This document shows, piece by piece, positions 2,401-49,012 of a DNA stretch of 64,000 nt. Position 1 is the first letter of the stretch; every line of letters begins with the position of its first letter. Source of the stretch: Phoronis australis (lineage: Eukaryota > Animalia > Phoronida); contig NMRA01000538.1 of NCBI GenBank assembly GCA_002633005.1, positions 62,001-126,000 on the forward strand. Direction: 5' to 3'. The position numbers and the translations under genes are program-made. The notes below the pieces were generated by a model. That model ran no database searches. It saw only the letters and a program-made list of their open reading frames with translations, and had not been told where the DNA came from.

Positions 2401-5400
2401 ACAAAATAAACACCCCTAGAAGTACATCGTTTGCATTGCATTCGTGGGCGCATTTCAAATATGGTATTTCAATAAATGACCTTATATCGCCTACATCAAT
2501 CTCCTTTCATCTCTGGTAACGAGCTTGCGACGCACGTATCATTTATCTATTTTTCGGGACATATGTCGATCATAAACATGCCTTGCTCTGCCCGAAAATT
2601 GCAAAGTGACATTACCTCCTTGATACTAACATATCCACGAAGTTTTGTGAACATGGGTCAAAGGACTTGGCAGATATAAATTAAAGCAAACAAGGGAGGG
2701 AGGGAGAGAGGGAGAGGTTGTTTATTGCACTTGGAGCTAAGCTCATTTGTACATATTACATTGCAACATTTGGTATAGGTGGCAATTTCATGCAAACAAG
2801 AACATTCAAATGTGATGCAAGGTGGCACAGCAGCAATTGGATCCATATGAAAATCGCTTTTAGCTGGCATCAATTTCAAGTAAATCCCATACGAGATTTA
2901 GCAGATACAGCAGTGAGGTCAGACAAATGCCGGACAGAGATGAAGGTAACATGCGCTCACATACATGTGAATAATTACGTGAGTACATAACAACTATTTT
3001 CAGAGATTTCTTCTTTTATTTTTGGTGTGACAAAGAAACAACGCAAGTATTGGGTTATGTCTTTTCATAACAATGGCATACGACACCAGCAAGCCTGGAT
3101 GCCATGCCTCTTCTAAGTGTACGTTTTGTGCACTCTTGAAATGGATGCACAGATGATTTACGTCCCTTAGAACTGTCTTGATGTATGCAGATCCTGATAG
3201 CAACAATTGCAATCCTTCTCAGTCTTGGTAGCCCCGTAACCAGGGGCAAAATGGTGATTTGATATCCAAACATCACAGAAATAACAGCTCAGTCCAGAGA
3301 TGGCGCTTGCAGCTTTGTTGCAGAAAGATGAGAAGGCATGCACAGTTGCCAGATAGGTGATGTGTGTCTTCGACTGCTGAGCCAAACCATCTTTGCGTTA
3401 ACCTAATAAAAAGAGTAATTTGCTTTAAAAATGTAGGAATTGAGAGTGCAGAACCATTGAATAGTAATAAGGAATATTTACTGGTCATTCGGGGGCACTT
3501 TTTTGATCTCTTTTGACTTTGAGGTAGCTTATCACCATTTTAACAAGACATGAGGACAAGTAAACAAAGACTCTAACAGACAGTATATTTGTTCTGAACA
3601 TTAATGGTGTTGAAAACTATTAGGAGGCACTGCTGATCAGAAAGGCGAAAATTGTAAGTTTAGTTGTCATCAATTACGTAACACCAGATGTGTCAGACCC
3701 TCGCCAGGTGCCAGTGCCACTCTGTATATGCAGACCTGTGTGTCACCAAAACTGCATTGGAGTACTGGGAACACCAGATTTGCAGATTTTGTAGTAAATT
3801 TGCAGATTTCCGCGTGCAGACCAAATTTATCCTAATATATAGGGGGGAGGGGGTTAAATTCTTCGCAGTGGACCTTTCACTGACTAAAAAAAATATAAAT
3901 ATAAATATAAAAAAGAGTTTGCTCAACGTTCAGAGCTTTCGCCAAATCTTGCCTCTTTAGTGAACTTTTGGTTTCTCTCAGGACCTTTTTGCCCACTTTG
4001 CCAAATGGGGGACTCATTCTCGCCCCCCCTGGGTACGCGCACGGGTACTTTTTCAACTTATTTGCCTCTCAAACAGTTTCTAAAATACACGTAGTGAACG
4101 GATAACCAATTTCAGAATAATTTAAGTTGTTTTAGTCGTTTAGTTGAGGGACAATGAGCTTAGTGAAAAGATCCTGTTAATCAATAGAAAATGTCCTTAC
4201 TGAACTTAACCATTCACAAATGTTTTGAATTATTATTCATTGCAAGTGTCTGTGAACACGTACCACCGTACTGCATGCGAAAAGACCTTGAGGCTCGACT
4301 CTGGCTCAAGTATTATCGTCAGCTCAACATGCTACGAAGTCAGTGCAGTCACCATGTCCGCAAAAAAAACACACGCTATACAACTTGCAGTATAAATTCC
4401 AAGGTCCCTTGAATAAGACACTGTCATTCTTTGGGATAACGTAGCAAAAACAGATGTTCCCTTCTTTCAGAAGCTATTTTCTTCACAACTCAGAATATGC
4501 GACCATCATGCTTTGCAATTTTGTCAACAGTACGTATTTAGCCGTAAATAGCTGGAATTAGACGAAGTAAGCAATCCACAAATCACAGAAGTCAATGCTT
4601 ATAGGTTAAGCCTGTGACACACATACCGATAGAAGAGGCCTTGCAATTCGCCTATTATCAGGGTATTTCGAGAACGAAACAAAGCAAGTTTTGCGAGTTT
4701 GTAGCTCAACTTTTTGGCTAAAATAATGATTTTACAATATCTTTTTTTCTAACTTTAAAATATTCTTCCTCGTCCGTTTCGACTACAAATCAGTGTATTT
4801 ATTGAGAAACAAGAGAATTAATCTCTTTTAAATTTGCTGAATTTGCGTATTTTAGCCTGGCCGTGTGTACTGGAGGCTTGATTTACGTACGAATCCGCAT
4901 TTTTTGCGTATGGTGCACAGGTCTGTATTTGTACTTTTTGTAACTGTTCCACTTCTTAAACACATCCTTGTAGTTTCGATTTTATTCTTGGAAATGATCA
5001 CAATAGCATGCTTCTTGATGGTCTCCGAAATCCAGTCATTGAAGTCCACTTTTAAATTGGTGTTCCATAAAATCGACATTGCTAATCTTTATGAACACAG
5101 GCTAAGCAATTGGTTAAAAGCCTGTTCTGATTGAATGTGCTCAAGTCATCTTGGTCAAAATTGTTGAAGATCTGATAAACATATGACTTTAGACTGAAAT
5201 TAAACAAACATTTTTCATGAGTCTTCCTGCTCCCCTAAAGTGATAATGGACCAGAAAAACATCAAGATTCCACCTTCTATAGATGTTCTGGGCAAAGGGG
5301 CCTTACCCTAGAAAACCAGCCCATTGTTTCAGTTAACACAGGGTAAACAGACAGGTTCGAGATGTCAGAAAAGAGAATGGATGTGTTTGGTGGACAGGAA

Positions 5401-5452
5401 ACCTGAGTGGCCTCAACAGACTGTGTGATAACGAGATGATAATCATCGGTGG

Positions 5453-5616
5453 ATGGACACTGTAATGCATAGTTCTAATTATTATAAGCATTATGGACAC
5501 TGTAATGCATAGTTCTAACTATTATAAGCATTATGGACACTGTAATGCATAGTTCTAATTATTATAAGCATTATGGACACTGTAATGCATAGTTCTAACT
5601 ATTTTAAGCATTATGG
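5453..5616. repeat. 40-bp minisatellite, ~4 copies, in the predicted 3' UTR of the TPP1/ACD gene
   Basis: Unit atggacactgtaatgcatagttctaa(t/c)tat(t)ataagcatt repeated with exact 40-bp period. Confidence 0.95.
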
Positions 5617-5656
5617 CAAGATTTAGTCAACTCGAAATCACACCTGCCTTTCTCAT

Positions 5657-5767
5657 CTATGTTTGAACACTGGCCCAGTAATGTCTAACTTTAGCCAGTA
5701 GCTCCTCTGGTACAACTTGCATTGTCCTCTTCTCACACTGACTACTGTACTTTGCTTCAAGAAAGTC
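5657..5767 (-). CDS. ACD: TPP1/ACD last coding exon (TIN2-binding-like C-terminus)
   Basis: Acceptor atttgcag, then DFLEAKYSSQCEKRTMQVVPEELLAKVRHYWASVQT*. Confidence 0.8.
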   Translation of the reverse strand, partial: DFLEAKYSSQCEKRTMQVVPEELLAKVRHYWASVQT

Positions 5768-8700
5768 CTGCAAATACAAAAGTATAATCAAACAGGGATT
5801 GTGACAACGCTCAGTTGGTTTATATAGTTTGCTTGCTTACAACGTTTCGTTCTACAAGTGTGAAGCCGATAGTACTGTAAACAGAATGCTTTGGTTACAA
5901 CGAACTTCAGGTTACAACGAATGTTTTCGAAGGGTCCTGGCACAAATTGTCGTAACTTGGTTCCACTGCAATATGAAACTTCAATAAATATACCTACATA
6001 CTATTTACTTTAACTGGTAACTGAACTAACTAGAACGCATTACCTATTAGTCATCATGGATCAGCAATGTTTATACATAGAACTTTCACTCAATGCACTG
6101 AATGTAACAAAACTGCCAATACAATAAATTATTGCAGGTCACACAGCAAAAAATATTTTAAAAATAAACCCGGTTTACTGCCACTAGTAAAACTCCTTAA
6201 ATGAAGTGTTGTTATGGGAACCCAAGACATGAAGATAAAAAAATAATTATGCTTCTTTAAAAGAACCACCAAAGTCAGCTAGGCGCTGTGACAACACCTA
6301 AGGAATTAAAATGCTAATTAAGATTTTATAAAAATCCAATATCACAGGCTGTGATAATTCTATCAAAAACAGATACGTTTTACTGGTTGGATATTGTGCT
6401 CTCGACCATTTCCAACCTTTTCCAGTGTTTTCTGCCTTTATCTTCGATGCTCTGGTGCTTCAAACCTCTGATAATTTTAAAGATACATTTTTACTTTCAA
6501 TCGATTCCCTCAGAGAAATAAATCCTAACGTTTGAAAACCAGTCCATTTGGTTTTTAGGTCCTAAAGTATGTAGAATAGAGATAAATCTGTAGCATATGG
6601 CAGCCCTAAAACATTAAAGCTCGCAAAGGAATGATCCGACCAGACTAAGCGATTTTATCTGAGAAGGGCAAAATCTAACATGGCTGAAGGGCCGAACGCA
6701 CAAACTACACCTATATTCCGGTCAGGATTCAGTAAAAATCTGACTTTTGCATGTGCGACTTATGGAAAGTTTCTGGATTTTTATGACTCACCTTAACACT
6801 ACATAACAAAGTTTCTTCCTCTAGTTTGTCACCAACACTGGATGCCTGTGACAATGCTTGTCCACCTGAAAGTCATGTCAAACCATTGGAGCAAAAACAA
6901 CATAAAAAAATGTCCAAGAGCAACGTAGAACAAGTACTCCACGTTTCAATGGCGTAGGCAATAAAGGTATATATTACATTTTTTGAAGACACTTCTGGTC
7001 AATTTGGCACATTTTCTTACTAATAAAAGGTATTTTAACCACATATTAAGGCACTTACATCCAAAATAACGCTACTCAAGTAAGTTGCATACAGGTGCAT
7101 ACGCCTAATACCGGTGTAAAACATCCTTACACAACTTGTTTTGACAGTGCATTTCCCAAGATCACATTCTGTTAGGCTCATTTATAAAGTTTTAAGTGGC
7201 CAGTAGGAATAATACATGTATCACCTCAATTCATCGACTATAAGCTGCAACTTTAGATGTAAAGTAACTTAATTTTTCATATTCGTACCGGATGAAAAAA
7301 ATTAGTAGATTATTAATTGAACCAGACCTGAATCCTGCAAAACATTTGCTACAAAATGTTAATTAGAAACAGACAGTGTACTCCTCAGAAGGCACAGGTA
7401 CCTTTCCCTTGGGGAGAGTGAGAGCCCTGCCTTATGTGATGCTATGCTTTAAAAACTGCCCAATCACATCGTGTGAATCAGAAGATTACTCCAGTGTGGT
7501 ACATAATTCCTCACTTTTCCAGTCTAGCCTGGACTAAAGTTTGGTGCAGAAAGCCTGAGGAAAAGCTCAATTCTTTAAACTGAATTTTGTACACAACTTG
7601 TTGCTTGAAGAAATAATGTTTAGACAACAAGCATGTTTAAGCATGTAAATACCAATTTATTGACAGCTTTGTGGTGACGAAACAAAATTTCCACCTCACC
7701 TTGCATTAATAAATAGTCTGGAGTATTTGGCATTCTGTTCTCATCTGAACTATTGATCACAGTGCCTCTGCTCTTCCAGCTTTCCTGTGATGGAGAATCA
7801 GAACTGTGCGGCAGTCTGGTAGATTGCTCCTGTGTCAGCCCCCCTTCTGTAGAGTCACTGCTGATCGTGATCACGGTTTGGCAGCTGGGTTCAGAACTAA
7901 ATTTTTGTGCACAGGGAAAAGAGCCAGTTGCTTGAATGTCCGGTGAATGTCTTGCGTCAGAAATCTCAATAACTTCTGTGGGCGAATTCAATTTCTCTTC
8001 CGGTGAAGAAAACAGACTTTCGTCCGACTTCTGCGAAGACTTAAAGTTTACATGGCCTTTACTTGGCAATACTATATCTTTTTGATGGCCACTAATTACG
8101 GAAGACTTCTGGGGCATCTTATGAGGTGTTTTCTCATGGCCTGCTGCTTGTTGAGTACTGTCACCTCCCCACATTCGCTCAAGTCGCCTAAATTCATTCT
8201 GGTCTGCACGTTTTCCCAAAGACTCCCCAATGGAAGCAAGTCGAGCTTCCTCCAGAATGTCGCCACAGCCACCCAGCAGAACACTACTGTTTTGATAATA
8301 GTAAGTATCCTTGGGAATCTAAAAACACACAAGCAAGTCAACAGTGGGAATTTCTGACTGTAACCTCTAGGACATATACCTGAAAATGGTCCATTTTTCA
8401 CATTTCTGGTGCCCGAAAACCAGCCTGGGTATACATTCCGAAAAGTATGGGGCCTATCGATGAAAAATGCATCGCAAAACAATCAAATACATTCATCAAA
8501 CTGACATGATTAATAACAGAAATTTAAATTTTTGACCAATAATTGTAGACACTGTTCAGTTTGTGAAACCTTACAAAAGGTGAGAAATTATTAAAAAATT
8601 GGCCTATGGAAACTCTTTAACTTGCAACAACTGGGCCCTAGACATGATTTAGGACCACAGTCAGGAACTCATGAATCTTAACCCTTTACATTTAACCCAA

Positions 8701-11700
8701 GACCACACGGAAACTACACTGTCTACTTCAGACAACAGAGAACGTTTACTATAGTTGTTCCGAAAATGTAACATTTGGACTTAAATGATAATAACTTACG
8801 GGTGACAGATTTAACTGAATTGGGTTGACCTGCGACATGCTTTGAGTGGATTGCCTTGGCTGGTACTGTGTTTGTCGTTCAGCTTGGTGTCTGATGTCTC
8901 TCAGGGTAGACTCACTGTTAGGGTTCGACATTAAGTTGGTATCGTTGCCGGGGCGACCCATCTCTGTCAACAACTGGCTGTACGTGTCTTGTGTCGACTG
9001 CCCAGGCAAAGCGCATTGGAATGTGAATCAATACATCAATGGAGCAAAAGCTTCGATTTGAAATTAAGTTCCGAACTATTTGTACGTTAAATTAGGAAAA
9101 TACAAGTTGAACTTAATTACACTAGAACATGAAACAAACATTCAATAGCGATTTATTTTTACATCTAATTGACTTGTAAATTACTATGGCATCTTAAATG
9201 TAAATCAGAATTCCAGGGAACAAATTCAGAGCTTGCCAATTAAACATTTCATAAATATCACATTGTTAATTTTGTAAATGTCACCAACGGTCAAAGAAAC
9301 ATACTATGAAAGGTCCGACAGCTTGGTCAAGACTATGACAATATTCAGCTTACTACAGACACACTATGATAAAAAAACGGGTCACGTAATTGTACTTTAA
9401 ACAACCCGTAACTAGCTACTACAATTGGCAATATTGACCTCCTGTTGTGGAGAAACGACACGGCTTTCCTCAGATTCTAGGTGAAAAGAAGCCAATTCAT
9501 CGCTGACATTGTTTGCTGTCATTTTAGGCTGAAAAAGAAACTAGCAAGATGTAGATAAGTAAAGATGAGACGAGTCATACCCCTTCATACTAACCTGGGT
9601 AAACGTAAACAAGTTCTTTAGTTTGAGTTCATTCATCGAGTCACAAGAATTTCTAGCATCTCGTTAAAATGGGCAAGGAACTTTTTAAAATATGCTTCGA
9701 CTCACTACTCACAACATACAGTAAACGGAAAAATTATAGCTGATAACGCTACCAATGAAATTTTCCTAGCTGCAAAAGCAAATGCTTTAAAAAAATAATC
9801 GAGACATGGAAGAGTTGCTCATTCCTCTATAAAAGTAAATGACACTCATGTGCACTGCCCAATGCCTGAAATGAACGTTTAATGAGTAATCTGGTTCATA
9901 ATTTGTGTTTTTGTAAGAGCATCATGCAAAGTGGTTGTATCGCTATTTCCAGCAATGACACTCATAGGCTATAATCCATTCATGCGGTGTGGCTGATTAA
10001 GGTTATGTTGGTCCCTACAAAAATGTCTAAAATTTGGCTTAATTCGGAACATCATACCTCAAACGTGGCTGATAGAATTCATATGAAACTTTCAGATAGT
10101 ATCCTTTTTTAACTGTTCTCCAAATTACTGCTAAGAATTTTAGAAATGTTTCATTTTTGCACAAGGGGCTATAAAAATAGGACTTTTACCAAGTTCATGA
10201 AAAAATAGAAAACTGTAACAACGTTTTTGAGATCTTACCTTGAAAATCGATATCAATTAAAACTTAATCATCATTGTTTTCCTATTAACGTACCTTTCGT
10301 TTTTGTTAAAATTTACTAAAAAGACATCGTCACACGAACCAATTAGTAACAGATTGGAAAAAAGGTAACAATCGGAATTCGACGTGGTTTCTTATTTTCA
10401 AAAAATATATACCTCTACAGAGTTAAAATGTAGTCTTGTAGACATTTGACTAAATACACACACCTGTCAATAACGAGGTACAGAACCTTAAGAAGCATGA
10501 GTTACATGAGGCTATATAAGTGGAACTAAATAGTCAACTGGTGAGATGACATGGTAAGAGCTTCAGGAGTTTCATACATTCAGGAATTTTTACCATCCCC
10601 AGCACGTGTGCTGGCTCCTCAGGATTTTTTATCACAACGAAACTGTTTTAAAGGAAATGTACCATGATTAAGTCAGTCTGAAGCAGTTCAGCGTACTTGA
10701 GTATGGATGAGTACATGTTTCACTGAGTCAGCAGTGTTAGATTAAAAATGCATTTGCATGCTCCTAACAATGCTAATGTATTGCAGGAACTAAACGACTA
10801 TGCTATTTTAGCATAATCTAAGCTAAACAAAGTGCAGTTGCATTCATTGACAACTTGTGAATGTAAAAACTAAAAAAATATCCTAATAGGTGACCCTTGC
10901 AGTAATGACGTACCTTGGGGGCCCAATCAACCCGCATCAAGCAGTGTTATTCCCCCAACACCACAACATGATACTTACTGGACACGGTTCAGTGATTTAC
11001 AGCCGATTATTTTTGGCATAAAACTCCTTCTTAAGAACATTAGACAATTTGCAACGCACTTCATATTCACATCATTACTATATGTTGTGTTCTAACTAAT
11101 TTCACCAAGCAATCACAGAGATACATAACTGGCATGCAAGTTCCAATTTAAACATACTAATATTTTGTCACCACAGCTTTGTGAATGACGTTAGCTCCGC
11201 CTGAGCATTGTGCTATGAGTTCTGTGAATACTAATTTGTTCGTGAATGACAGAGTGCACTCAGGTCGCTGAGACTGAGTCCGGGTTATACCGCATGTTCA
11301 GGCACTCTTGCGAATATTGTCACAATGGTCAGATGTGTTCTAGTCACTGTGCGAGTCTCAAGACATCATTAAGGTAACATTTACTGTCATTTGGTCGCAA
11401 TTTGCCTTTAATGCGTTCCACTTTGCAAATTACGTGTCCGTGAACTGTTACTGAATATTTTGCATCTTCCAGTACCACGGACGGACAGACAGACAGACAT
11501 CTCAATTGTAATGCGTTGCGAAATAAAGCTCCAAAATGTCCCGTGCAACTTGTTGTTTGACTCGCATGCAGATACAAGTTTAGTAGAGTACAAGTGAGAA
11601 ATTACTGTTTTGACACTTACGATATCTTGCTCTTTCTCTTTTGTACTCTGTTTGGCACCATTATGTTTGCTAACCTCACCACTGGCAAGCCTTTTTCGCA

Positions 11701-14700
11701 ATTGGTAAGGATGACCAAATTTCTTAAGTCTACACATGGCTTTTTCAGGAGTTTTTTCAACTGCAACAGTACACTCCTTTATCCCCAGCTCCTCAAGCAG
11801 ATTACTTTCATTCAAGTCCGTAAAAGTGCGCTTGCTAGATTTCGACCGGTTTTGTATCCATTTTTTGCCTACAATTGATTTTCCTTTCCAAGACTTTTCA
11901 AGGTGAGCACGGGATTCCTGACTTAAGTCAGATGGTACTGCCTGCCCCGTGGTGGACTGGGTTGCAGAAGGCACGTAATCATATCCCCATTCTGTAGAAA
12001 CAGTAAATATAAATTGAATTTGTAGTGTGTTTACAGAGTAGGCATCCAGACTGTAAATGGCCCTAGAACACAAAACAAAACAAAAAACATTTGACCAGAT
12101 TACACATATGCAGATATACCAACGGAATAATTATTTTCAACTTTCAGAAAATAGGCTTACAGAACTTTCGCACTTGAGAAATATTGTTGGTACAAAGTAT
12201 ACAAGTTTCAAAAAATGTTCAAGATATAAAACAATACAATTTTAGTTTAGCATGATGCGTTTTGGTCAGGATGGATTTCGTGGCTTGCATTTGTTGCTTG
12301 TTAAACAATTCATTTCATCTCAATTTCAAGTTTTAACCACATGAACCTGTGTAGTATCACTATAATTATAACCAGGTTGATTCTGAAATCACCTTTCAAG
12401 GTATCAAGATGTTTCTTGTCTTGCCTACTTATGATTAGATCTTCAGCCTTTCGGGCACCCCACATGGCGTCATCGTCAACTTTGTCCTCAGCACCAGACA
12501 CAGCTATCAATAAGACCACCAGAGATATAGTTACTATAACTTGAAACAAAACTATTTCCAAAGCACTCATATAAATATACAATGGAAGAATGGCACCATC
12601 TTAACCAACAACCTTAATAAAACCAAAATATCTTGTTGGTGAATTACAAAAGCAAAAGATATTGTTGGTGAATTACAAAAGCAAAAGACATTGTTGGTGA
12701 ATTACCCACTTTTAAACATACTCATGACAGCTTGAAATTTTGACTTGTGCTAGACCTAACATATACATGTGAAGTTGCACCTGAACCCAAATTTAGGCAC
12801 ATGCAAAACATTAGAGTAAAAGTTGTATGTAAGTGAAGGCCGAGTATAGTATATTACAGAATGAATAAGAACACACACACACACCAAGTTTGTAACATGT
12901 GCATGCACAATTGACAACTGTATGTGTTTATAAAAGAAGCTTAAGCACTACTCTATGGGGAAAACACTTACGTATGAGAAAAACTGATATTTTTTGAATA
13001 TTAAAGCTAGACCTAAATGCACACAAAAACGGTACTGCCAGAGAGAATTTCTAGCTCACCATTAAAGGGTCTGAAGTCTGTGACTGGTGCAGCACCACTC
13101 ATACCCAGCCAATGACAGCACAGTCTCTGAGGAGCATCCGTAGTAGTCTCTGGTACAGACGGACCACTCTGTCCACGTGACCTACTTCTCGTTGTCCGCG
13201 CATTCAACACGCTCTTGTCTGTATCGCCCAGTCCAATGGACGTTGTGACAGCAGCGTTGGGCTCGCTTAGACAGTCCACCAGCTGTGACAAACTACTCGT
13301 CTTGTGCTGTGCAGTTTCAGAATCAGTGGACTCCGCCCGCCTAGCCAGACTGGAATAGGCAAAATGTAAACGGAGTGAATGAAAAGCCATACAAGAAGTT
13401 GGTAAGAATTTGCCGTCGATTTGTATAGGGAACTTTTGTAATTTCGGATGGGTTTGTTGTTTTTGCATATTGTGGGAATTTAGTAATGTCGAAGTAAAAT
13501 TAATGAAAATGTTGAATCACAATAGACTGAAAAAGGCACATCTCCATTTTTAACCCAAATGGAGACACACGGATGCAAAAACATAAACACATGCGAAGCT
13601 ATTAAGGTTATGCAGGACCATAGATAAATGTCCACATTTGGCTAACTTCAGAACAACTCAGAAATGGCTTATTGTATTCATATGAAACTCAGACATATTT
13701 CATGCACTGTTCTCTAACAAGTCATTAGAAATTATTTCTAAAATATTCTTCTTTTACACAAGGGACTATCACAAGAGGATTTTTACGAAAAACTAAAAAN
13801 NNNNNNNNNNNNNNNNNNNNNNNNNNNNNNNNNNNNNNNNNNNNNNNNNNNNNNNNNNNNNNNNNNNNNNNNNNNNNNNNNNNNNNNNNNNNNNNNNNNN
13901 NNNNNNNNNNNNNNNNNNNNNNNNNNNNNNNNNNNNNNNNNNNNNNNNNNNNNNNNNNNNNNNNNNNNNNNNNNNNNNNNNNNNNNNNNNNNNNNNNNNN
14001 NNNNNNNNNNNNNNNNNNNNNNNNNNNNNNNNNNNNNNNNNNNNNNNNNNNNNNNNNNNNNNNNNNNNNNNNNNNNNNNNNNNNNNNNNNNNNNNNNNNN
14101 NNNNNNNNNNNNNNNNNTCTGTGCGGATTGTTTATAAAATTTACTAAAATTACCCACCATCAAACATTTATGGCCCAATGAAACAACAACGACCTGTAAA
14201 TTTTAATTTTTTTGAAGTACGACCACCAGCCATTTTGAATTTAAATCAAACGCAACCACCCATAAATTTTTATTTCAGTTGCCTTCCCCCCCCTCCCAAA
14301 CAGATTTTGCTGGAACAGCCCTAAAAAGAAACGACAATGTCACCCAATTTATCCCACATAGGTATGAAGTAAAAAATCAAATTCAATAGGCTTTCTAATT
14401 ATATAACATACGTACTTAAGCGCAGTTAAATTAAAAACAAGTTTGTAAATATTTGCCTAAATGCAGATTTATTGACAGTGTCCTACACAATCTGTAAGAG
14501 AGCCATTCAGGTCAGTTGTCATCGCTCATTTGTTTCACCTACAAGTTTTAATAAAGTTCATATCTTTTATGAAAACTTGAAAAAATAAAATTTCATTTGT
14601 TAACATTAGAGCATCTTAAATTACTGAGATTTTACCACAACACATGACTTACTGCTGTGCGAAGTACAATACAACCGGATGGTTCATGCTGAAAGGAACA

Positions 14701-17700
14701 AAACATCAAATCAGATCCACAAAACTGATTCACAACTTAAACATCGTGTTTACAAATTATGAAAAGATTTTGACCAAGAGATCTTTTTACAAATAAATGC
14801 AGAAATCAAATACAATGCACTGTGGGAAAACGGTCACCCACAGCAGAACGAAATCAACCAATGAAACCAGAGATCTATACTTACTCTTCCAACCAACAGA
14901 ATGTTTGATATTTCAAAAATTCAAATCACAGGATCCCTTGGGCTACAGATAACACAAGAAAATCATCATGGTGTTTGAAGATGCTCACATACAAAACAGG
15001 AAAATTCACCTAATCATCCGTCTCAAAAGCTGTGGGTGGCCTATAAGTTGTCCAAAACACGCAAGACAAGAAGCATACTGAACATATATGAAGAGAAAGA
15101 GGGAATATGTATAATGTTATCTTCTATGCCAAAGGCCCATCGAAAGAAAAATGTTATCCGCATACCAATTGCTAATGTTCTTGGAGTGAATAAAGCCAAC
15201 TCGTTGATCCAAAACATTGTACTTGTCCACTTGCATGTAGAAATAATAGCGCCCCTGAAACAGAATCGGACTAGTAAGCATTACTGAATGGAGCAAAAAC
15301 ATACAAAAGCTGCAATAAAATTAGTCAAACACACACATTTCATCGAAGCTTGGAGAAAATTCAGTATAACAGTGCATTATTAGAGTTTTGTTAACACAGT
15401 TGTGGCATATTTATAACTTTGTACAGTTGTTTAACTACATCGTTCTTCAGATTGTCCTGGGTGAAAAACTTGAAAACAAAAATCTGACAAAAATTGTCAT
15501 CGAGAACTAGTCTTTTCTTAAGTAATAACATGAAATACAGTACCACCTTTTGATGAGTTTCCTATTTGAACGACTCTTCAAAAACTGTTCCTTTTTCACA
15601 AGATTTCCCAAAATGGTTTCTCAGTACGGTTTACTGGCAAGCAATCATACTCACTGGGTTATTGAATACAAAGTGTACGCTGTAGTCATGAATGACGAGC
15701 AGGGCGCCGCGAGAGAGCTTCATTTTTGGATCCTCGTCGTCAAGTGAGTCAAGATAAGTGCTGTGAAACAGAGAGAAAACATACATCTCACAGCAACTTA
15801 AAGCATTAAAACAAATTTTTATAAGCTTCACGTGCTAAGGAAAACTGAAACATCCCCTTTTCCTAAATTGTGTACCAGTTCCAAAAATCTCAGAGTGATG
15901 GTGAGGTGAAATGTCTACCTATGGTGAGACAGAGATTACCGCCAGACTCATGCTCTGTTCGCTCTACAATTTCTAAACACTGGGGTCTAGTTAACACATC
16001 TTCCAAAATCTTGTTGGAGCCTACTTCAATTTTCAAGTCTGTGAAAAGTCCAGTAACCTTTATTTTTGTAAAGGAAGACGCACAGTTTACACATTGAAAA
16101 ACGAGTCGAGCCTACTGACACTTCCAGGGGTAGGAAACTAACTCATTTCCATTTCTTGTTCTATTTCTTATGAAAACTATGTCCTAAATAACACAACCAT
16201 GAAGTCAATATGATCCATTTTAGCCTAATTGCATCACACAACGCAGAAACACTGCCTCGTATTAACAATGCTCAAGTGTTAATCAGTGTCATTGTGCCTG
16301 TTAAATAGGACTTAAGTGACTTGATGGTGTCAATGTCAATTTGGAATGCTCAACACAGAATCAAATACAGGTTCAAATCAAAGCCAGCGAATTGTCACAT
16401 GAAATCAAAGCCAGCGAGTTGCCACATGAAACTACAAAAAATATACTGGAGTTACAAGATTCAGAAGCACCAAGTCAATAACAGAGAAAATCAAGCTCCT
16501 TTAACAATGTTCTGCCACAAAATCAAGAAACTCAACTGAAAATGGCAATATCGAAACTTAATATTCAGTTGATCATAGCTGTTAGAATTGAACAAAGAAA
16601 GCCTGTCCACAAAATTTTGGCAGACAATAACAATGTTGTTATACAAACGCACACTATGTTACGATTCCTGATCAATGTCAGAAGCTTTAAGTCAGGCAAC
16701 AATCAAAATTATCTCAGATAATGAAGTTCAAGTCAACAAAATTTGTTAGAAGAAAATTAGATCTTGATAGACTTTTCTTACTCGTTAGAATTCTGATGCT
16801 GAGGTTGTTCTTTAAACACAGCAACGATTCCGTAGCCATCATCGTGAATGAGTCGGACAGCAGCACTGTTCTCTGGTGCTGGTACATCCTGTAAATGTAC
16901 CGTAATCAATGATATCGGACGAGTCAAAACGCGGTTGATATACCAAAATACCTGTTCTTCGGAACTCTTCATTTTTTAAGTGATTTACAAGAGATTTGTA
17001 ATTTTTACTCTAGTATTTAGAGATTGTGCCAACCCTTTTGCTTCTCAGGTATCATCGCACATGAGGAAAAGGCACTAGCTATGGCTGCAAGATGAGTAGG
17101 CATATAGTCTTGGTTAATAGGTATATCGTCTTGGAGTAGCCTTAGGCTCTCAGTTCAGGCGACTCGCTATTCACTAGGTGGTGCTAAAAGTAAAGGTCCA
17201 ACTCTTTGAAATAATATTTTTGGCCAAATTAGAAGTAAGACGTAGAAAACAAAAACAATGCTCGAGTGCAGCATGAAACTGATGTTTCGATATTAATCAA
17301 ATATCTTCCAGAGGTACAACAGTAGACAGAAAACGAAACAATGTAACAGAATGTTCACTTCACATCACAATGCAAGATACGACAACTAAATACTCTACCA
17401 AAACTCTATCCAGTAAGCTCCGACAGTCCTATTGCCAAGAGACCACTCAATAGGGATGTTGGAGCACATAGGCTGGAGTTATGGTTTTTAGTTGATAAAT
17501 CTTGTGCTATGCATCGTGATATGAACATTCTGTAACGATATTTCGTTTTCTGTCTACTGTTGAACATGAGGATGATATCTGATTACGGTAATATTGAAAC
17601 GTCACTTTCATGCTGCGCTCTGTTGTTTTCCCAATCCTTTTTAACATCTGAATAGACTGAGATCAGGAACCAGTTAATCAGCATAGGTGTGTTAATATAG

Positions 17701-18477
17701 TGGACCCACACGATAACCAGAGTACAAACATTTCTATGGGAAGGACCCTTGCTTCACTTGAGGGAACCTAATAAATTTTGAATTTCCCATAGTGTTGGTC
17801 TTGATATTGTGTATGCACAAAGTGACGCTTGCTACATTTACTCAATTGAAACACAACCCACATCCACTCCAGCAGTACTAGTGTTCTGTTTACCCGAGTT
17901 CATAGTACATTTCCCAGTTTTATATTCGGTTGCTCATCTTAACTCAATTCCTCCGACTTATGAAGAATGCAGACTATTGGAAACACTGGAGGTGTGTTTA
18001 ATGGTCTGACTTTGCTCGATTTTTGCCCAGTTTGAGCGCCTTTGATATGTGCTGACTGCTGAGGGTGGCAAATGCACCGATTTCATGATATAAAACGGAA
18101 CACTTGTGAACCAAAGGTATTGAATTTAGGAAAAAATGTTATAATTTAAACTTTCGAGGTTACCACAGATTTTGAAGTGAATTTTGGGTACAGGTCGTCA
18201 AATCGGGCAGTGACCATGCTCAAATTTTGTGTCACAGCTACCATCAGAAAATATTTTGAAAAACTGTGGACAAGTACAATGACACCAGATCTTGAAAAAC
18301 AAAGAAATGTAATTATGGTAAATATTTTGGTCCGAAGTTGGTGACATTTTATTGTAACCAACTTACATGGCACTCAATCTCCTTCAGTCTCTTGCCAACC
18401 TCAACAAGTCTGGAGGTGGAGGGCCACTGTGGGTTGCTGAGGATGTAATCTACAATCCAGGGTTGGACATCGACCAT
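5657..18477 (-). CDS. ACD: Shelterin subunit TPP1 / adrenocortical dysplasia protein (ACD) homolog, 13 coding exons, ~770 aa
   Basis: Phase-consistent GT-AG exon chain (minus): 18477-18367, 16888-16782, 15760-15655, 15254-15166, 14688-14653, 13349-13060, 12503-12393, 11991-11621, 9528-9439, 8997-8800, 8318-7700, 6865-6792, 5767-5657 (2313 nt). N-terminal OB fold reads MVDVQPWIVDYILS...SRLVEV...AVRLIHDDGYGIVAVF...LDDEDPKMKLSRGALLVIHDYSVHFVF..GRYYFYMQVDKYNVL...NCMNHPVV. This parallels human TPP1 RPWIRELILG / QLLEV / TLLVSDGTHSVRCLV / EEKE..GTEGRLLLLQDCGVHV / FYLQVDRFSLL / GCNQD. It also has SSLSQLVDCL (cf. SLSQLLDEM), EDLIISRQDKKHL (cf. MLCISENDQLIL, POT1-binding region) and a C-terminal VPEELLAKVRHYW (cf. 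TIN2-binding LPPQLMAWALHFL). The low-complexity middle exons are less certain. Confidence 0.85.
7700..8318 (-). CDS. ACD: TPP1/ACD large Ser/Thr-rich linker exon
   Basis: Acceptor gtgtttttag, IPKDTYYY...LLMQG, donor gtgagg; overlaps ORF 7620..8219; phases match both neighbouring exons. Confidence 0.8.
10001..10487. mobile_element. Non-autonomous DNA transposon with TTAA target-site duplication (Kolobok/piggyBac-type); related copies at ~13602-14490, ~24560-24980 and ~41250-41370 (reverse)
   Basis: TTAA(9997-10000)-GGTTATGT ... ACAGAACC-TTAA(10488-10491). The motif ttatg...aaatgtc...tttggcta...ttcatatgaaact recurs at the other sites. Confidence 0.6.
12634..12705. repeat. 29-bp tandem repeat (~2.5 copies)
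   Basis: ttgttggtgaattacaaaagcaaaaga(t/c)a repeated. Confidence 0.85.
13800..14117. other. Assembly gap (Ns), inside a TTAA-type repeat copy in a TPP1 intron
   Basis: Run of n. Confidence 0.99.
14653..16888 (-). CDS. ACD: TPP1/ACD OB-fold core exons 2-5 (16888-16782, 15760-15655, 15254-15166, 14688-14653)
   Basis: Canonical splice sites; phases 0/2, 2/0, 0/2 and 2/2 join without stops to give the Est3/TPP1-type OB motifs. Confidence 0.85.
17264..17620. mobile_element. Foldback/palindromic MITE-like element (~360-bp imperfect inverted repeat)
   Basis: gagtgcagcatgaaa...caacagtagacagaaaacgaaa...acagaatgttca pairs with tgaacattctgt...tttcgttttctgtctactgttg...tttcatgctgcgctc. Confidence 0.75.
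18367..18477 (-). CDS. ACD: TPP1/ACD first coding exon (start of OB fold)
   Basis: ATG 18477, MVDVQPWIVDYILSNPQWPSTSRLVEVGKRLKEIECH, donor gtaagt. In-frame stops lie just upstream; the acceptor at 18511-18512 implies a non-coding first exon further upstream. Confidence 0.85.
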
Positions 18478-18720
18478 CGTGACAGACGCTCACACCGCCA
18501 GTCATAAAACCTGCAACTACAAAAACATGACAACTTAGAAAAAGAAATTAAAAAGCCCAATGGGACGAGTAGTGCTGGCACTTTTGGAAGTATAGGGGCG
18601 ACACATTTGACAGTTGATGAATTTGGATTGTTGAGGGAGAGAATCTTCAAAGTACTGCTGCTAAAAATGTAAAGCTGCTGCAACACGGTTGGTACATATT
18701 TTCCCGATATTGGGTGGTTA

Positions 18721-18873
18721 CAGTAAAACCCACATTAGCTGGACATCGATATCAATTTTCACCTAGGTACTGTTGTTCTTCATGCACTTGGCCCTTCAGA
18801 TTCAAGTCAGACTTCACATTGATTGGAAAAAACCTCTTTATCTGGTAGCACTCAACTTAAGTGTGTTTTACTG
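18721..18873. mobile_element. pogo/Tigger-like MITE (TA TSD)
   Basis: TA-CAGTAAAAC ... GTTTTACTG-TA. Confidence 0.65.
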
Positions 18874-20163: not shown

Positions 20164-20539
20164 TGGGATATAGTGGTTCCTGAATTTGAGAATCAGTTTC
20201 ACTCACTGAATATCAATAAGGGGACCTTCGCCTCGTTCTCAAAATCAAGGACCACTACATCCGACAATTGTGGCACTGGGCCAGTGGGGGCACTGTCTAT
20301 GGTTCATAGGGAACACTTAACTCGTTGAGGAAGTAATAAAGCCTGGCAAATGAGTTGAATGAAGGTCATAAAACATGGTCCTCGCAGATCCAGTTACACA
20401 ATGCTAGCCTACAAGTTAGCCTACAACTGTGAAAAGGCAACACCACAATTTCACAAAAACACAGTCAACAGGCACCGGTTAACTTCAGGTTTATTGAACA
20501 TCAGAGGAAAAGATTCTCTTCACTGCATCACTACATACC

Positions 20540-20936
20540 ATGACAATAGTAACTACAAAGACGCAGGTTTTTTATGAGAAGGATACATAATTTATGCACA
20601 AAATCGTTAAACTGTCGAGCAAAGCAGACGGCGCAATTTTGCTTTAAAATGGCCGCGGAAATTGTACACATGTTTTGATGACGTCCTATCGACATTTTTC
20701 GTTTACTTTAACATTTGAGGACATAAAATAGACAACAATGCATTTTAAGCATCTTTATCACACATGCTTATGATTAAAGGATTCATGAAAAACGAAATAA
20801 AAAATCAAATATTCGTAAGAAGCTGTGTGCTTGTGACGTCATGCACAACCTAGTTGGTGGTTGAGTTTATTTGGGGAGTACCTGCGAAATATTTCAGGCG
20901 TATCTGATTGTTTACGTACTAATTACTGCCCATTTC
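20540..20936. promoter_or_regulatory. Putative bidirectional promoter shared by TPP1/ACD (-) and par-6 (+)
   Basis: Lies between divergent genes; locally CpG-richer; YY1-like AAAATGGCCGC at 20646-20656; palindromic CRE TGACGTCA at 20834-20841 plus a half-site at ~20679; candidate minus-strand donor (gtatgt) near 20538. TSSs not observable. Confidence 0.5.
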
Positions 20937-23900
20937 ATGGGCATGGACGGCGACATGGCTAAAAACCCTAATGGTCAAAACAAGGGAGTAAACACTGTCG
21001 TGGAGGTGAAGAGTAAGGTAAGTCTGAATTTACGGGAACTCCGCCCTCGGAGTCTGACTGAGTAATTCGAATGGACTGAGTGACACACTCTTATCGGAAT
21101 ATCACTTATCATCGTCACTGTTCTGTCCCCTGACTCTGTTATGTTACTGTTTTCTGTTCTCATTTTAAGTCTACTTAGAAGTGCCTGTATAAATGCTGTG
21201 AGTGTAGCATAAGAAAGGAACGATGGAAACTATGGTGTGGGGACCAGATCTCCATGATCGGCACCGGTCGGATATAAGAGAACCAGTTCCATCCGCTATT
21301 AATGGGCCTGTTATTCAGTGATTGCCTGGTTCTCTTGAACAGGTACTGCTATATTCGACCAGTGCCCCCATGATCAATCCATGCACCATGAACGTCTGAT
21401 TGAAACTGGTGTTCTTCAAATTGTCACCACTCCACTCACCATTATTGTCTCTGAGAATTTGTAGTAGGTCAAGTAATTGAAACTGTTTGGATACAGTTCG
21501 TAGCTCTTGATTTTGGGAATCAGAGGAACCAGGCTCTTGGTTCCCTAAACTACACCAGATACCACAAAATTCAGCCAGTGATGGCACTGGTCTGTTATAT
21601 ATCGGATTTAGAGAACCATGCAGTCGTCGCATCAGGCTGGTACTCAACGAATGAAACTGGTTCCTAAAATCAGGGAGTGCTATATCTGACCATTGCTGGC
21701 ACTGACAGTGAACATAGCCAGCTTCAGAATTGTTGTACAGACACTAGACAGCCATTTTGAATAGAGTCCCATCTACTTAGCTTGAACCCATACACCATGT
21801 ATTATCAGCATGGACTACTTAGGGGGAGGTATTCGTATGTTCACTTTTAGCATTGTTGTTGTTAAAATCTGTTTGTCCACTATCTCACATAAGAACTGGC
21901 ATTAAAATGTTTAGGAGTGGTTTGTTCCAAGTTAGTCACATTTTGGGAATGGCCTAACATACTTTGGTCAAAGCTTATAACTTCATTTTAGTCTATCCCA
22001 TCCAAAAGTATTTATAAAAATAGGTTTTTGGCTGTGAAACTGATGATGTTCCTTAAAGCTTATATTCAGAATGGGTAAATGAGTGTAAAGCATGGTATAT
22101 GTCAAGAACTTTTTGTGTTAAATGTGTCCTTGGTTAGTTTTGCCTTCTCCATGTTCATGTGTTCATAGTTTATGTGTAATCTCTACCACGCTGTTCCTTT
22201 TTACTTTAAGCAGAACAAACTTCCTATGAGTCAGTTAGATTACCAGGAACTGTCTGATATCTAAGTTGAATGTTATACAAGTGATTTAGTTTTGTTTTGC
22301 GTATAGTAGTTAGTTTTTAGAATCTGATACTCGTTTTAAAAAGGCTTGTTTAAAAATTGTGTTCAGGATAGTGATTTTGTCCTCATATTTCTCAGTGGAC
22401 TTGAATTAACAACTGTTTTCTTCTACATTTTAAATGATTACCCAAGGACAAAAGCACATCAGGTGTTAACCAAGTATAACCCCCCCTTCTTTCTTTCCAA
22501 GAGGATCTCAAATTTATCCTGTGGATAGTATTGTTGTTCTTTGGCCTGGTTCCTGACTGTGGCTTGCAAGTCGACACCACACCCTTTGTTCTGCTTTTGT
22601 TTTGATCTACTCTTCACATCTCTCTGTTATCTCTCTCTGAATCACCAGCCCAAGTGTTACAGCTAACCAACAAGTATCTTCAGCTATCCTGGATGTTTGT
22701 AAGTTGAGAACTCTGTTGACACTGCCTGGTGATAAGGCTGAAGTGTAAACAGTGGTGTTTGGTATTTTATTTAGTACTACCTGAATTCAAACAATGGGGT
22801 GATATTTTAATGCGTTTCAAGTAATAAAAGTACATTAAAGCTGCCTTGACCTTTGCCTAGGGAGGTTCAGCTATGACACTTAAATCACTCTGTACTTGAC
22901 AAGATACAAGTTCATCAATGTTCATAGATCAGCACCTATATATCACGGAATGAAACAATGGCCTTGCTGTGTTTGCCAGCCACTTCCATACACAGGGGTC
23001 ATCTGAACCCACCTCCCAATATTGTTGGATTCTTTCGTAATTTCTTGGTATCCTTGAAAACTGTTCTCCCTTTCTACTCATGTGAACCTGTTACACATTT
23101 CCAGCTGTATTTACAATTTACTTCTCATCATTCCTGTTGCACATTTACAGGCTATTAATCCAAAGATGTGTAAAGTGTTAAGTGGGAGGATTCTCAATTA
23201 TGACACTTGTTTATTGATTCAGTTTGGTCAAGCCTGTGGTCTATAATTACATGGAATTAATAGCTCAAGAGGTGCTCCACATGAATTGATGTCATGGTGA
23301 CTTACTAGGTTGGCAGTGGGAGGGGGAGTGTGATAACCCTGAAGCTATCCAGACAAGCTGGTGCCTTGATTCTTTGAGTTTTCCAACAAATTCACTTTTA
23401 GCAGCCAATAGGCTGTGAGAATGCTTGCATTGCACCATGATATTTTTTATGAATCAATACATATTTTGCAAGTAAAGTAACATTTGGCCTGTTGCTTAGT
23501 GCATTATTGTTGAAGTTATGTGGTGATTGAAGTTGTTTCCATTCGTTTTATCCTGTTGGGTATGTATAATGCAATAGTCACTTGCCAGAATACCACTCCT
23601 TTTCCTGCCCTATTTAACCACATTGGTGCTATAGCTTCACAGATGAACACGTTCTTCCATTATTTTGAACTGAAATTGGTCTTGCTGTTTGTCATTCTGG
23701 TACGAATAAATTTTTACTATTTGTGAGACAGAGTTGCAATGCAGTTAGAAAAAATGAATATCTTAGGCACGATAAATCATTTTTCACTTTTCTGTCTGTC
23801 CTCAGAAGTGTGTTTGGCTTCCCTCCATTTCAAAAACTCTCTAGACCAATGTATTTGCATTTTTCAATCTTTGCAAATGAAAAGGGATTGTTTTGGAAAT

Positions 23901-47900: not shown

Positions 47901-49012
47901 GAAGTAACAGGAAAGTTAGTATGGAAACTAAGTCATTAAATAATTTTACTGTTCTACGATTTGTTTCCATTATTTTGTGTCGTTTACAGAATTAGCTGAC
48001 ATGACGGGGAAAATGGTGTTTTGTATTATACTGTGTTTTTAATACAGTCAAACCCCAGCACAAGAAACTCTTGGACTTTCCTAAAACTTTTGTTATAACT
48101 GAATTTTGCTATAACCAATTGATGCAACTTCTATACAGCTCAATTGTCAGAGGACTTATGGAATGGGATGTTACAAGCAACTAAGCGAACATTGGAAATG
48201 AGCCATATTCTAACAGGTTTAACTATACATTTCTTTTAGTTTTTTAAATTTTTGAGATTGTGACTACGTAGTTGTCATGACCTAACATTATTATCTTCTT
48301 TCCAGAAGAGAACTGGTTCGAGCAGAATGGTTATGGCAGCCTGCCCATGAAGAAGAAGAACCGCATCAGCCAGCTGATAGCCGGCGAGCCCAGGAACAAG
48401 CCCCACCTCAAAATAAGCCTTCCCGAAGACTTCCGCCGTGTCTCTGCCATAATCGACGTTGACATCGTACCAGAGGCACATCGTCGAGTCAAACTCATGA
48501 AGAATGGCTCGGACAAGCCTCTGGGCTTCTACATCAGGGACGGGACGAGTGTGCGCGTGACGCCGCATGGACTTGAGAAGGTGCCGGGTATATTCATCTC
48601 GCGGCTCGTGCCTGGTGGGCTCGCAGAGAGCACCGGTCTGTTGGCAGTCAATGATGAAGTGCTTGAGGTTAATGGCATTGAGGTGGAAGGAAAAACTCTA
48701 GATCAGGTTACAGACATGATGGTGGCTAACAGTTCAAACTTGATTATTACTGTTAAGCCAGTCAACCAGCGCAATACGCTGGCGCCGCAACGCGGTGACA
48801 TCGGGCGCAACTCGCAGATGTCACAGGTGTCGAGCATAGGCTCGACGCACTCAGTTGATAGTGATGAGGTCAAAGAGGTCATACAGGAAGACGAGGAAGA
48901 GGACGATGTTCAGGATCTCTCGCGGAATACGGTCAATGAGGATGATGACATCATTGAGAAACTGTCGATCACGGAGGAGAAAGATAAGGCCAAAGCCATG
49001 GTTACGTTATGA
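20937..49012 (+). CDS. PARD6: Partitioning defective 6 (Par-6) polarity protein: PB1, semi-CRIB and PDZ domains; 3 exons (20937-21017, 28699-28924, 48306-49012), 337 aa
   Basis: Exon 1 ...VVEVKSK|gtaagt; exon 2 FDAEFRRF...[18 protein letters not shown]...LRLQVQRK-type PB1; exon 3 [21 protein letters not shown] (semi-CRIB), [54 protein letters not shown] (PDZ), C-terminal MVTL*. Phases are consistent (1014 nt). The start could be any of the Met codons at 20937, 20943 or 20955. Confidence 0.97.
28699..28924 (+). CDS. PARD6: par-6 exon 2 (PB1 domain)
   Basis: actttcag|TTTGACGCCGAATTCCGTCGT ... AGAAAAG|gtatgt. Confidence 0.96.
30833..31130. mobile_element. MITE-like element with imperfect terminal inverted repeats
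   Basis: aggtcacag...agccagaactc at the left end pairs with gagttctggct...ctgtgacct at the right end. Confidence 0.5.
33561..33690 (+). mobile_element. tRNA-derived SINE-like head (second copy ~37984-38110)
   Basis: A-box-like TGGCCTAGTGTG and B-box-like G(A/G)GTTCGAGTCCC; flanks GCAGTGTGGCC (33567-33577) and GGCCACACTGC (33632-33642) are perfectly complementary; no canonical cloverleaf or anticodon arm was confirmed. Confidence 0.6.
34528..35537. mobile_element. Tc1/mariner-superfamily (Tc2/pogo-like, CCGTA termini) element with TA TSD; interior partly in a gap
   Basis: Perfect 24-bp TIR CCGTAATCGTTCGGGTTAACGCCC / GGGCGTTAACCCGAACGATTACGG, TA at 34526-27 and 35538-39, subterminal TTAA(C/G)CGCCC arrays. 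Empty site gagtgTAgatgg in the duplicate copy (~38938-38949). Confidence 0.92.
35041..35422. other. Assembly gap (Ns)
   Basis: Run of n. Confidence 0.99.
37537..37819 (+). mobile_element. 5' part of a Helentron-associated (HINE/DINE-1-like) non-autonomous element, truncated at the contig break
   Basis: Terminal hairpin TACTTGGCGAAA-taaa-TTTCGCCAAGTA, then a T-rich/GTTT microsatellite, gatcatcacgaaatttacac and ATGGCGGC/GGCGGCCATTTTG motifs; absent from copy B at the homologous position (~40850). Family assignment is inferred from architecture. Confidence 0.55.
48045..48225. mobile_element. Degenerate pogo/Tigger-like MITE
   Basis: TA-CAGTCAAACC ... GGTTTAACTA-TA. Confidence 0.45.
48306..49012 (+). 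CDS. PARD6: par-6 exon 3 (semi-CRIB, PDZ, acidic tail)
   Basis: cttctttccag|AAGAGAAC..., in frame with ORF 48347..49012. Confidence 0.97.

What the first reader, a model, noticed from the sequence alone, without database searches (positions are those of the whole stretch)
5657..18477. Hidden, complete invertebrate TPP1 (ACD) shelterin gene with all three vertebrate-type modules
Seen: 13 small GT-AG exons join in frame into ~770 aa; no single ORF in the track reveals the gene. Known: TPP1 bridges POT1 and TIN2 and recruits telomerase via its OB fold; it diverges fast and is often missed outside vertebrates. Inference: the protein has the OB fold (PWI; HDDGYGIVAVF; GALLVIHDY; FYMQVDKY), a POT1-binding-like segment (SLSQLVDCL...EDLIISRQDKKHL) and a TIN2-binding-like C-terminus (VPEELLAKVRHYW). 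This implies a vertebrate-like shelterin bridge in this invertebrate.
Basis: partly seen in the sequence, partly recalled or inferred. Interest (0 to 1): 0.8.

Follow-up and report, generated by a model that had tools for sequence, protein, structure and literature searches.

The report
Telomere gene TPP1 facing PARD6
This is a real, expressed gene with 13 coding exons in an invertebrate animal that likely encodes the telomere protein TPP1, a family already known from invertebrates; it sits head-to-head with the cell-polarity gene PARD6 much as the human gene does, which would make this gene pair very old.

Summary
The gene is real: 13 minus-strand coding exons give 770 aa without a stop, and RNA reads show 12 of 12 introns in two runs. 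TPP1 identity is likely (0.88) but rests on indirect evidence, because the spliced protein could not be profiled or folded and single exons hit no TPP1 family or relative. Two lines support it. Published human TPP1 landmarks fall in order from N- to C-terminus (0-2 of 500-600 shuffles; anchors added post hoc). And the gene starts about 200 bp from PARD6, head-to-head; human ACD lies 132 bp from PARD6A. 'All three vertebrate-type modules' is overstated: POT1- and TIN2-binding residues are not matched above chance singly. Invertebrate TPP1 is in print (Myler 2021; 14 species). The host looks like a lophotrochozoan outside the sampled molluscs, a group with no TPP1 in that list. The scan noted TPP1-like genes before in two fungi and a diatom, not this pair. 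Verdict: new member of a known family; the old gene pairing is the fresh part.

The parts
20539..20640 (-). Non-coding first exon of the TPP1-like gene (upper end approximate); an ATG at its last three bases opens a 5-codon in-frame upstream ORF
   Evidence: Joint 18516-20539, CT..AC, 10 reads in X2, none in X3/X4; uORF computed
18367..18516 (-). Coding exon 1 (ATG at 18477; aa 1-37), start of the likely OB fold with QPWI
16782..16888 (-). Coding exon 2 (aa 38-73), LIHDDGYG turn matching the published L23 loop
15655..15760 (-). Coding exon 3 (aa 73-108), acidic loop DDED at the TEL-patch position, then RGALLVIHDY
15166..15254 (-). Coding exon 4 (aa 109-138), FYMQVDKY strand
   Evidence: human D207 also lies in exon 4
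14653..14688 (-). Coding exon 5 (36 nt; aa 138-150), amphipathic helix
13060..13349 (-). Coding exon 6 (aa 150-247): SLSQLVDCL helix and the protein's only HW dipeptide (H229-W230), candidate POT1-binding helix 2
12393..12503 (-). Coding exon 7 (aa 247-284): L269-x-I271-S272, candidate third POT1-binding module
11621..11991 (-). Coding exon 8 (aa 284-407), start of the Ser/Gln/Glu-rich linker
9439..9528 (-). Coding exon 9 (aa 408-437), linker
8800..8997 (-). Coding exon 10 (aa 438-503), linker
7700..8318 (-). Coding exon 11 (aa 504-710), Ser-rich linker
6792..6865 (-). Coding exon 12 (aa 710-734)
5657..5767 (-). Coding exon 13 (aa 735-770, stop TAG): hydrophobic tail, candidate TIN2-binding motif
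4981..5656 (-). Probable 3' UTR (40-bp tandem repeat at 5453-5616; AATAAA at 4986-4981)
   Evidence: minus-strand RNA depth down to 5000
20640..20849 (.). About 200-bp gap between the two 5' ends; likely shared promoter (CRE-type palindrome TGACGTCA at 20834)
   Evidence: PARD6 read ends at 20849 and 20860 (X4); TPP1-strand depth in bin 20520-20720 and none in 20721-20921
20849..49012 (+). PARD6 gene, head-to-head neighbour; coding exons 20955-21017, 28699-28924, 48306-49012 (331 aa)
   Evidence: E 1.8e-69 to PAR-6 beta; 45 reads run from 21017 into exon 2

Best explanation
This expressed gene with 13 coding exons likely encodes the animal's TPP1 (ACD), the shelterin subunit that would link POT1 on the single-stranded telomere overhang to TIN2 on the duplex, and it starts about 200 bp from PARD6 on the opposite strand. 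Shown: gene structure, expression, purifying selection, head-to-head position. Inferred mechanism: residues 1 to about 160 fold as an OB barrel whose acidic loop (D77-D83) would face the telomerase TEN domain; residues about 220-285 would clamp the C-terminal OB fold of POT1 through the H229-W230 helix and the L269-x-I271-S272 strand, without the vertebrate helix H1 that docks on the HJRL insert; about 450 disordered residues tether this head to a 36-residue tail, encoded by its own exon, that would dock on the TRFH domain of TIN2. My odds: TPP1 ortholog 0.88; POT1 binding given that 0.85; TIN2 binding through the tail 0.6; telomerase recruitment through the acidic loop 0.45.
For: Structure and expression. 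Constraint: 18 of 32 listed RNA-versus-DNA codon differences are synonymous against 22-29% expected (P 2e-5 to 1e-3; 9 of 13 in residues 1-160; only the best-supported rows were displayed). Architecture: hydrophobic, order-prone residues 1-160 and tail, polar disordered middle, as described for TPP1 with linkers of 50-700 aa (PMC8653790 section 10). Landmarks: 11 blocks of human TPP1 residues taken from papers chain in order at residues 54-269 and 735-765; anchored at both termini the score 63.7 is reached by 0 of 600 global and 1 of 600 local shuffles, with untrimmed peptides by 0 and 2 of 500. Synteny: human ACD ends at 67,694,718 and PARD6A begins at 67,694,850 (PMC8220202 table 4); the P491T change is chr16:67691750 G>T (PMC4180972), which puts ACD on the minus strand with its 5' end at the PARD6A side; ACD and PARD6A are also listed next to each other in cattle (PMC12171144). 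Exon register: human D207 is in exon 4 and codon about 228 in exon 5 (PMC7903889); here D118 is in coding exon 4 and exon 5 starts at codon 138.
Against: No profile, structure or homolog hit to TPP1 was obtained: Pfam 0 of 9 exons and 0 of 9 exon-bearing frames; PDB 0 of 5 exons; homolog searches with exon 11 and exon 3 gave nothing and the exon 6 search gave one repeat artefact. Unanchored, the landmark chain is not significant (8.5% of global and 3.3% of local shuffles, 400 each; OB alone 27%, POT1 part 45%, tail 29%); the anchors were added after seeing this. Without the closing-helix block the anchored test weakens to 6-16 of 500 global and 21-30 of 500 local shuffles. 0 of 8 residue sets match singly. 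The Asp matched to human D148 reads as Asn in 10 of 10 and 21 of 21 RNA reads, so either the neighbouring D53 is the conserved Asp or the landmark is not invariant. OB and linker do not differ significantly in synonymous share (Fisher P 0.43). Myler et al. found the TIN2-binding helix in only two starfish among invertebrates and say TEL residues are not conserved outside mammals.
Confidence: 0.85

Rival explanations
1. It is the TPP1 ortholog, but only a POT1 partner: the tail is not a working TIN2-binding motif, so the vertebrate-type bridge is absent or built differently in this lineage.
For: In the register L524=L757 only 1 of 11 residues needed for TIN2 binding (PMC8262337) is identical and W527 is Lys; in the best chained register 4 of 11 are; the anchored tail score is reached by 34 and 72 of 600 shuffles. 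The motif was reported absent from most invertebrates, and no TIN2 is listed for Lingula or Capitella.
Against: After about 450 polar residues the protein ends in a hydrophobic, order-prone tail on its own phase-0 exon, where the best chain places both TIN2 landmarks without being told to; molluscs have TIN2.
Confidence: 0.33
2. It is not TPP1 but another OB-fold or lineage-specific protein with a long disordered region that happens to lie beside PARD6.
For: No family, structure or homolog hit; single motif sets at chance level; other human neighbours of the pair (CARMIL2, ENKD1) were not recognised in the window (not searched by profile).
Against: It needs two coincidences: landmarks in TPP1 order at both termini and a 5'-to-5' position at PARD6 with a gap like the human one.
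Confidence: 0.1
3. The N-terminal and C-terminal exons belong to different transcripts, or the frame is a chance assembly of small exons.
For: Only short reads were laid; no single read spans the gene; 17 joints were not displayed.
Against: 12 of 12 consecutive introns are read in two runs on one strand, the frame stays open for 770 codons and differences are biased to synonymous.
Confidence: 0.02

Closest known systems
Human TPP1 / ACD (Pfam PF10341; PDB 2I46, 5UN7, 5XYF as cited in the papers read)
   Same: Order of parts (likely OB head, POT1-binding region, Ser-rich disordered linker, hydrophobic tail); landmarks at offsets -88 to -94 in the head, close to the Met87 start register; HW and L-x-I-S motifs; D207-equivalent in coding exon 4; 5' end within about 200 bp of PARD6.
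   Different: 770 aa against 458 for the Met87 form (544 minus 86); 14 exons against 12; helix H1 residues L271/A275/L281 not kept; R297 is Ser; most TIN2-contact residues not kept in register; separate non-coding first exon with a 5-codon upstream ORF instead of an in-frame long isoform.
Invertebrate TPP1 orthologs of Myler et al. 2021 (PMC8653790)
   Same: Long variable linker; POT1-binding region reduced to the second and third helices, as they describe for invertebrates lacking the HJRL insert.
   Different: Their 5 lophotrochozoan TPP1s are all molluscs; none is listed for Lingula or Capitella. They saw a TIN2-binding helix only in two starfish. The word 'synteny' does not occur in the main text. 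Their sequences could not be fetched, so no direct alignment was made.
Conserved ancient microsyntenic pairs in 5'-5' orientation (Irimia et al. 2012, PMC3514665; e.g. HSPE1-HSPD1)
   Same: Unrelated genes, divergent orientation, gap under 1 kb, shared between distant animals.
   Different: PARD6 is not named in the main text; the supplement with the list of 795 groups could not be read. The two genes do not rise and fall together in the three raw-read runs, unlike the co-expressed examples.

Membership tests
TPP1/ACD (shelterin) | N-terminal OB fold matching Pfam PF10341 or the 2I46 structure | not testable with these tools
   The domain is split over five exons of 36-111 nt; only single exons could be scanned and none hit, which is uninformative at this length. 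No fold was predicted.
TPP1/ACD (shelterin) | Published TPP1 landmarks colinear from N- to C-terminus | tested here: met
   Anchored chain: 0 and 1 of 600 shuffles, 0 and 2 of 500 with untrimmed peptides. Post hoc anchors; unanchored 8.5% and 3.3%.
TPP1/ACD (shelterin) | TEL patch (E168, E169, E171, R180, L183, L212, E215) | tested here: inconclusive
   Acidic DDED at 80-83 and R90-x-x-L93 lie at the expected distance, but the full set scores no better than shuffles; E215 has no acidic match.
TPP1/ACD (shelterin) | POT1-binding helix H1 (L271, A275, L279, L281), the vertebrate HJRL contact | tested here: not met
   Best score 10 of 30, reached by 90% of shuffles. Expected to be missing in invertebrates, so it bears on 'vertebrate-type', not on membership.
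TPP1/ACD (shelterin) | POT1-binding helix H2 (H292, W293, R297) and third module (Y306, V308, L313, I315) | tested here: inconclusive
   H229-W230 is the only HW in the protein and L269/I271/S272 match L313/I315/S316; R297, Y306, V308 are not matched; chance level singly.
TPP1/ACD (shelterin) | Long Ser-rich disordered linker | tested here: met
   Residues 280-720 are 15% Ser and mostly negative in FoldIndex. Not specific to TPP1.
TPP1/ACD (shelterin) | C-terminal TIN2-binding motif (D496-W527) | tested here: inconclusive
   1 of 11 or 4 of 11 identities by register; 34 and 72 of 600 shuffles.
TPP1/ACD (shelterin) | Binds POT1 and TIN2, localises to telomeres, recruits telomerase | not testable with these tools
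   No genome is held, so this species' POT1, TIN2 and TERT were not available.
ACD locus orthology | 5'-to-5' adjacency to PARD6 with a gap under 1 kb | tested here: met
   for the window; for mammals. The plus strand of human PARD6A is recalled, not read.
ACD locus orthology | Shared intron positions in the OB region | tested here: inconclusive
   Exon 4/5 register agrees with PMC7903889. Phases 2,0,2,2 of introns 2-5 here equal the human phases as I recall them; no call confirms those.
PARD6 (neighbour) | PB1 + semi-CRIB + PDZ | tested here: met
   E 1.8e-69 to PAR-6 beta over the CRIB-PDZ part; three exons give an open 331-aa frame; top hits are Par6 with PF00564 and PF00595.

The most novel reading that the evidence does not exclude
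TPP1 and PARD6 have stayed head-to-head on one short promoter since the common ancestor of protostomes and deuterostomes, so PARD6 is a signpost for finding the fast-evolving TPP1 gene in animals where sequence searches miss it; and this lophotrochozoan TPP1 keeps both an acidic TEL-like loop and a TIN2-docking tail, which would push the full POT1-TPP1-TIN2 bridge with telomerase recruitment back to that ancestor.
Probability: 0.5. Interest if true: 0.5.

Novelty: new member of a known kind. Interest (0 to 1): 0.32.

Why it matters
It adds a verified TPP1 gene model for a lophotrochozoan lineage that has none in the main survey of metazoan shelterin, and offers a construct for an open question stated there: whether and how TPP1 recruits telomerase outside mammals. 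The PARD6 linkage, if general, is a cheap way to find TPP1 in unannotated animal genomes, and a new example of an ancient 5'-5' gene pair. It does not change the known model of shelterin.

Tried and rejected
Pfam scans of single exons and exon-bearing frames: no TPP1 hit; weak hits (SH3_Myosin-XVIIIa E 0.05, PEX-2N 0.21, WHH 0.006) are below their cut-offs and rejected. PDB sequence searches with exons 1, 2, 3, 4, 13: nothing relevant. Homolog searches with exon 11 (776 candidates, none at E 0.01) and exon 3 (1 candidate, none at E 1): blank, weak evidence. Search of 1.84 billion representatives with exon 6: one hit, P0001, a 1978-aa repeat protein whose five repeats sum to the score; rejected. 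The Atlas gave no result. No RNA holder was listed by the index; raw-read runs came by species label. Published residue sets scanned singly: chance level. A possible extra exon near 14540 and one near 6570 were considered from splice-like sequence and rejected: stops in frame and reads skip them. Tight co-regulation with PARD6: not supported. No complex was folded, since no partner sequence was at hand. Paper searches for the ACD-PARD6 pair as an old or bidirectional arrangement found nothing on it; shelterin + TPP1 + brachiopod found 0 papers. Hu 2017, Grill 2018 and Keegan 2005 were not held.
Full report
Observation. I placed exon ends at GT-AG sites; 13 exons give 2313 nt, 770 residues and one stop, at the end. 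Three raw RNA runs with the same species label and one contig set were laid on 5000-21000. Runs X2 and X3 show 12 of 12 introns (5-31 and 3-28 reads), X4 5 of 12, the X1 contigs 6 of 12. Most laid reads are 90-99% alike, so the RNA comes from divergent individuals; four joints are shifted by 1-3 letters for that reason. A second lay showed a non-coding first exon from 20539 spliced to 18516 in 10 reads of X2 and none of X3 or X4. Of 32 codons with listed RNA-DNA differences, 18 are synonymous, against 22-29% expected; the tables showed only the best-supported rows, 305 and 222 more were hidden. The one listed coding indel is in frame. The gene is real, expressed and constrained.

Anatomy. Residues 1-160 are rich in hydrophobic and aromatic residues, 280-720 are polar, 15% Ser and predicted disordered, and the last 50 are hydrophobic again. 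This is the layout described for TPP1: OB fold, POT1-binding region, linker of 50-700 residues, TIN2-binding tail (PMC8653790, section 10 read whole).

Direct homology tests failed or could not be run. The head is split over five exons of 36-111 nt, and only single exons could be handed to the libraries. Pfam, PDB and three large searches gave no TPP1 relative; the single hit was a repeat artefact. At 29-37 residues per exon such blanks say little. As a substitute I scored human TPP1 residues printed in papers (passages of PMC5394241, PMC5394233, PMC8262337, PMC5137443). Singly, 0 of 8 sets beat shuffles. Chained in order, they fall at residues 54, 80, 90, 151, 170, 220, 237, 260, 269, 735 and 749, that is in the head at offsets -88 to -94 and at the very tail, but the score alone is marginal (8.5% and 3.3% of 400 shuffles). 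With the first and last block tied to the termini, a step I added after seeing this, 0 of 600 and 1 of 600 shuffles reach it; with untrimmed peptides 0 and 2 of 500; without the closing-helix block 6-16 and 21-30 of 500. This is moderate support for a TPP1-like order of parts and no proof of any one module.

The neighbour. The next gene, on the plus strand, is PARD6: E 1.8e-69 to PAR-6 beta, three exons, 331 residues, first splice seen in 45 reads. Its RNA begins at 20849-20860; the candidate's RNA begins between about 20570 and 20720, by depth near 20640, so the 5' ends are about 200 bp apart and point away from each other. In human, ACD ends at 67,694,718 and PARD6A begins at 67,694,850 (PMC8220202, table passage). 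The genomic G>T that gives P491T at 67,691,750 (PMC4180972, passage) shows that ACD runs on the minus strand with its start at the PARD6A side; that PARD6A runs on the plus strand is recalled. Cattle gene lists also put ACD beside PARD6A (PMC12171144, passages). A gene picked as TPP1 on motifs alone, found 5'-to-5' with PARD6 as in mammals, is the strongest argument for orthology. Human D207 lies in exon 4 and codon about 228 in exon 5 of 12 (PMC7903889, passages); the matching D118 is in coding exon 4 here and exon 5 starts 20 codons later. The phases 2,0,2,2 of introns 2-5 equal the human ones as I recall them, unchecked. The wider human neighbourhood was not recognised in the window.

Host. 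The best named hits of the PARD6 exon are bivalves, Lingula and gastropods at about 70% identity. A quick tree with 26 named of 120 listed proteins puts it in a lophotrochozoan group (SH-aLRT 91), outside the sampled molluscs (90), nearest Lingula by path; no starred clade holds it and the careful search did not finish. So: likely a lophotrochozoan outside the sampled molluscs, not resolved further.

How it likely works. The head would fold as an OB barrel (inferred). Its acidic loop D77-D83 sits where human E168/E169/E171 form the telomerase-binding patch, but E215 has no acidic match and such residues are reported as not conserved outside mammals, so recruitment is a 0.45 guess. The Asp aligned to D148 reads as Asn in all 31 covering reads of X2 and X3; D53 may be the conserved one, with Asp/Asn in the turn (inference). 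H229-W230 and L269-x-I271-S272 would bind POT1's C-terminal OB fold as H292-W293 and L313-x-I315-S316 do, while helix H1 is not kept, as reported for invertebrates. SLSQLVDCL scores best as the OB fold's closing helix, not as a POT1-binding helix. The tail would bind TIN2, but only 1 or 4 of 11 critical residues match and the test is not significant. The two genes likely share a promoter yet are not expressed in step: PARD6 exon 1 depth is 8.6, 10.1, 36.4 and the TPP1-like exon 1 depth 11.8, 16.4, 0 in X2, X3, X4 (three runs, one study).

What is known. Myler et al. list 43 TPP1 orthologs, 14 of them invertebrate, including five molluscs, and none for Lingula, Capitella or Saccoglossus (supplement parts 1-2 of 3); alignments are pictures and could not be read. 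They conclude that the three functional domains are conserved in all metazoans, while finding the TIN2 helix in only two starfish among invertebrates. I read parts 1-2 of 8 of the text, section 10 and found passages. Old 5'-5' pairs with short gaps are a described class (PMC3514665, section 7 and passages); PARD6 is not named in its main text and its supplement could not be read, so the pair may be listed there. Six searches for the pair and one for brachiopod shelterin found no such report in the held library; other papers in those listings were seen as listings only. Earlier scan notes describe TPP1-like genes in two fungi and a diatom, nothing in this genome.

Verdict. Observation confirmed; interpretation partly supported. 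A likely TPP1 ortholog (0.88), a new member of a known family, with a possibly ancient link to PARD6 resting on one invertebrate and two mammals. Interest 0.32.

Noticed in passing
window 20955-49012 (+): PARD6 has only three coding exons but spans 28 kb, with introns of 7.7 and 19.4 kb.
   Followed up: partly
window 20539-20541 and 18516-18478 (-): Splicing of the non-coding exon places an ATG in frame 42 nt before the main start; it stops after 5 codons. Two more short upstream ORFs lie in the leader. May tune translation.
   Followed up: partly
window 18516-20720: Run X3 covers coding exon 1 well but shows no read on the non-coding first exon, so a second start site may exist; low minus-strand depth at 18711-18911 is unexplained.
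   Followed up: no
window 19100-20100, 14118-14324, 10340-11400, 17900-18300: Intronic repeats with reads on both strands; 19100-20100 has joints between opposite strands (inverted repeats, transposon-like); 14118-14324 reaches depths near 1000.
   Followed up: no
window 59937-63165 (-): Exons with a ubiquitin-like domain (E 5e-06) and ankyrin repeats (E 4e-05) form one probable gene; ANKUB1-like by recall.
   Followed up: partly
window 52556-52903 and 56131-56439 (-): Charged, coiled-coil-like frames with no Pfam family above cut-off; the second ends in a hydrophobic, membrane-anchor-like stretch. Not identified.
   Followed up: no
window 426-710 (+): Last exon of a fibrinogen C-terminal domain gene (E 1.4e-22), convergent with the TPP1-like gene.
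   Followed up: no
window 36200-37130 and 39600-40470: Near-identical frames occur twice inside PARD6 intron 2: a local duplication of about 1 kb or an assembly duplicate.
   Followed up: no
protein residues 294-743 of the model: 13 of the 14 SQ/TQ dipeptides lie behind residue 290, six of them in 439-558: possible ATM/ATR sites in the linker, not tested against composition.
   Followed up: no
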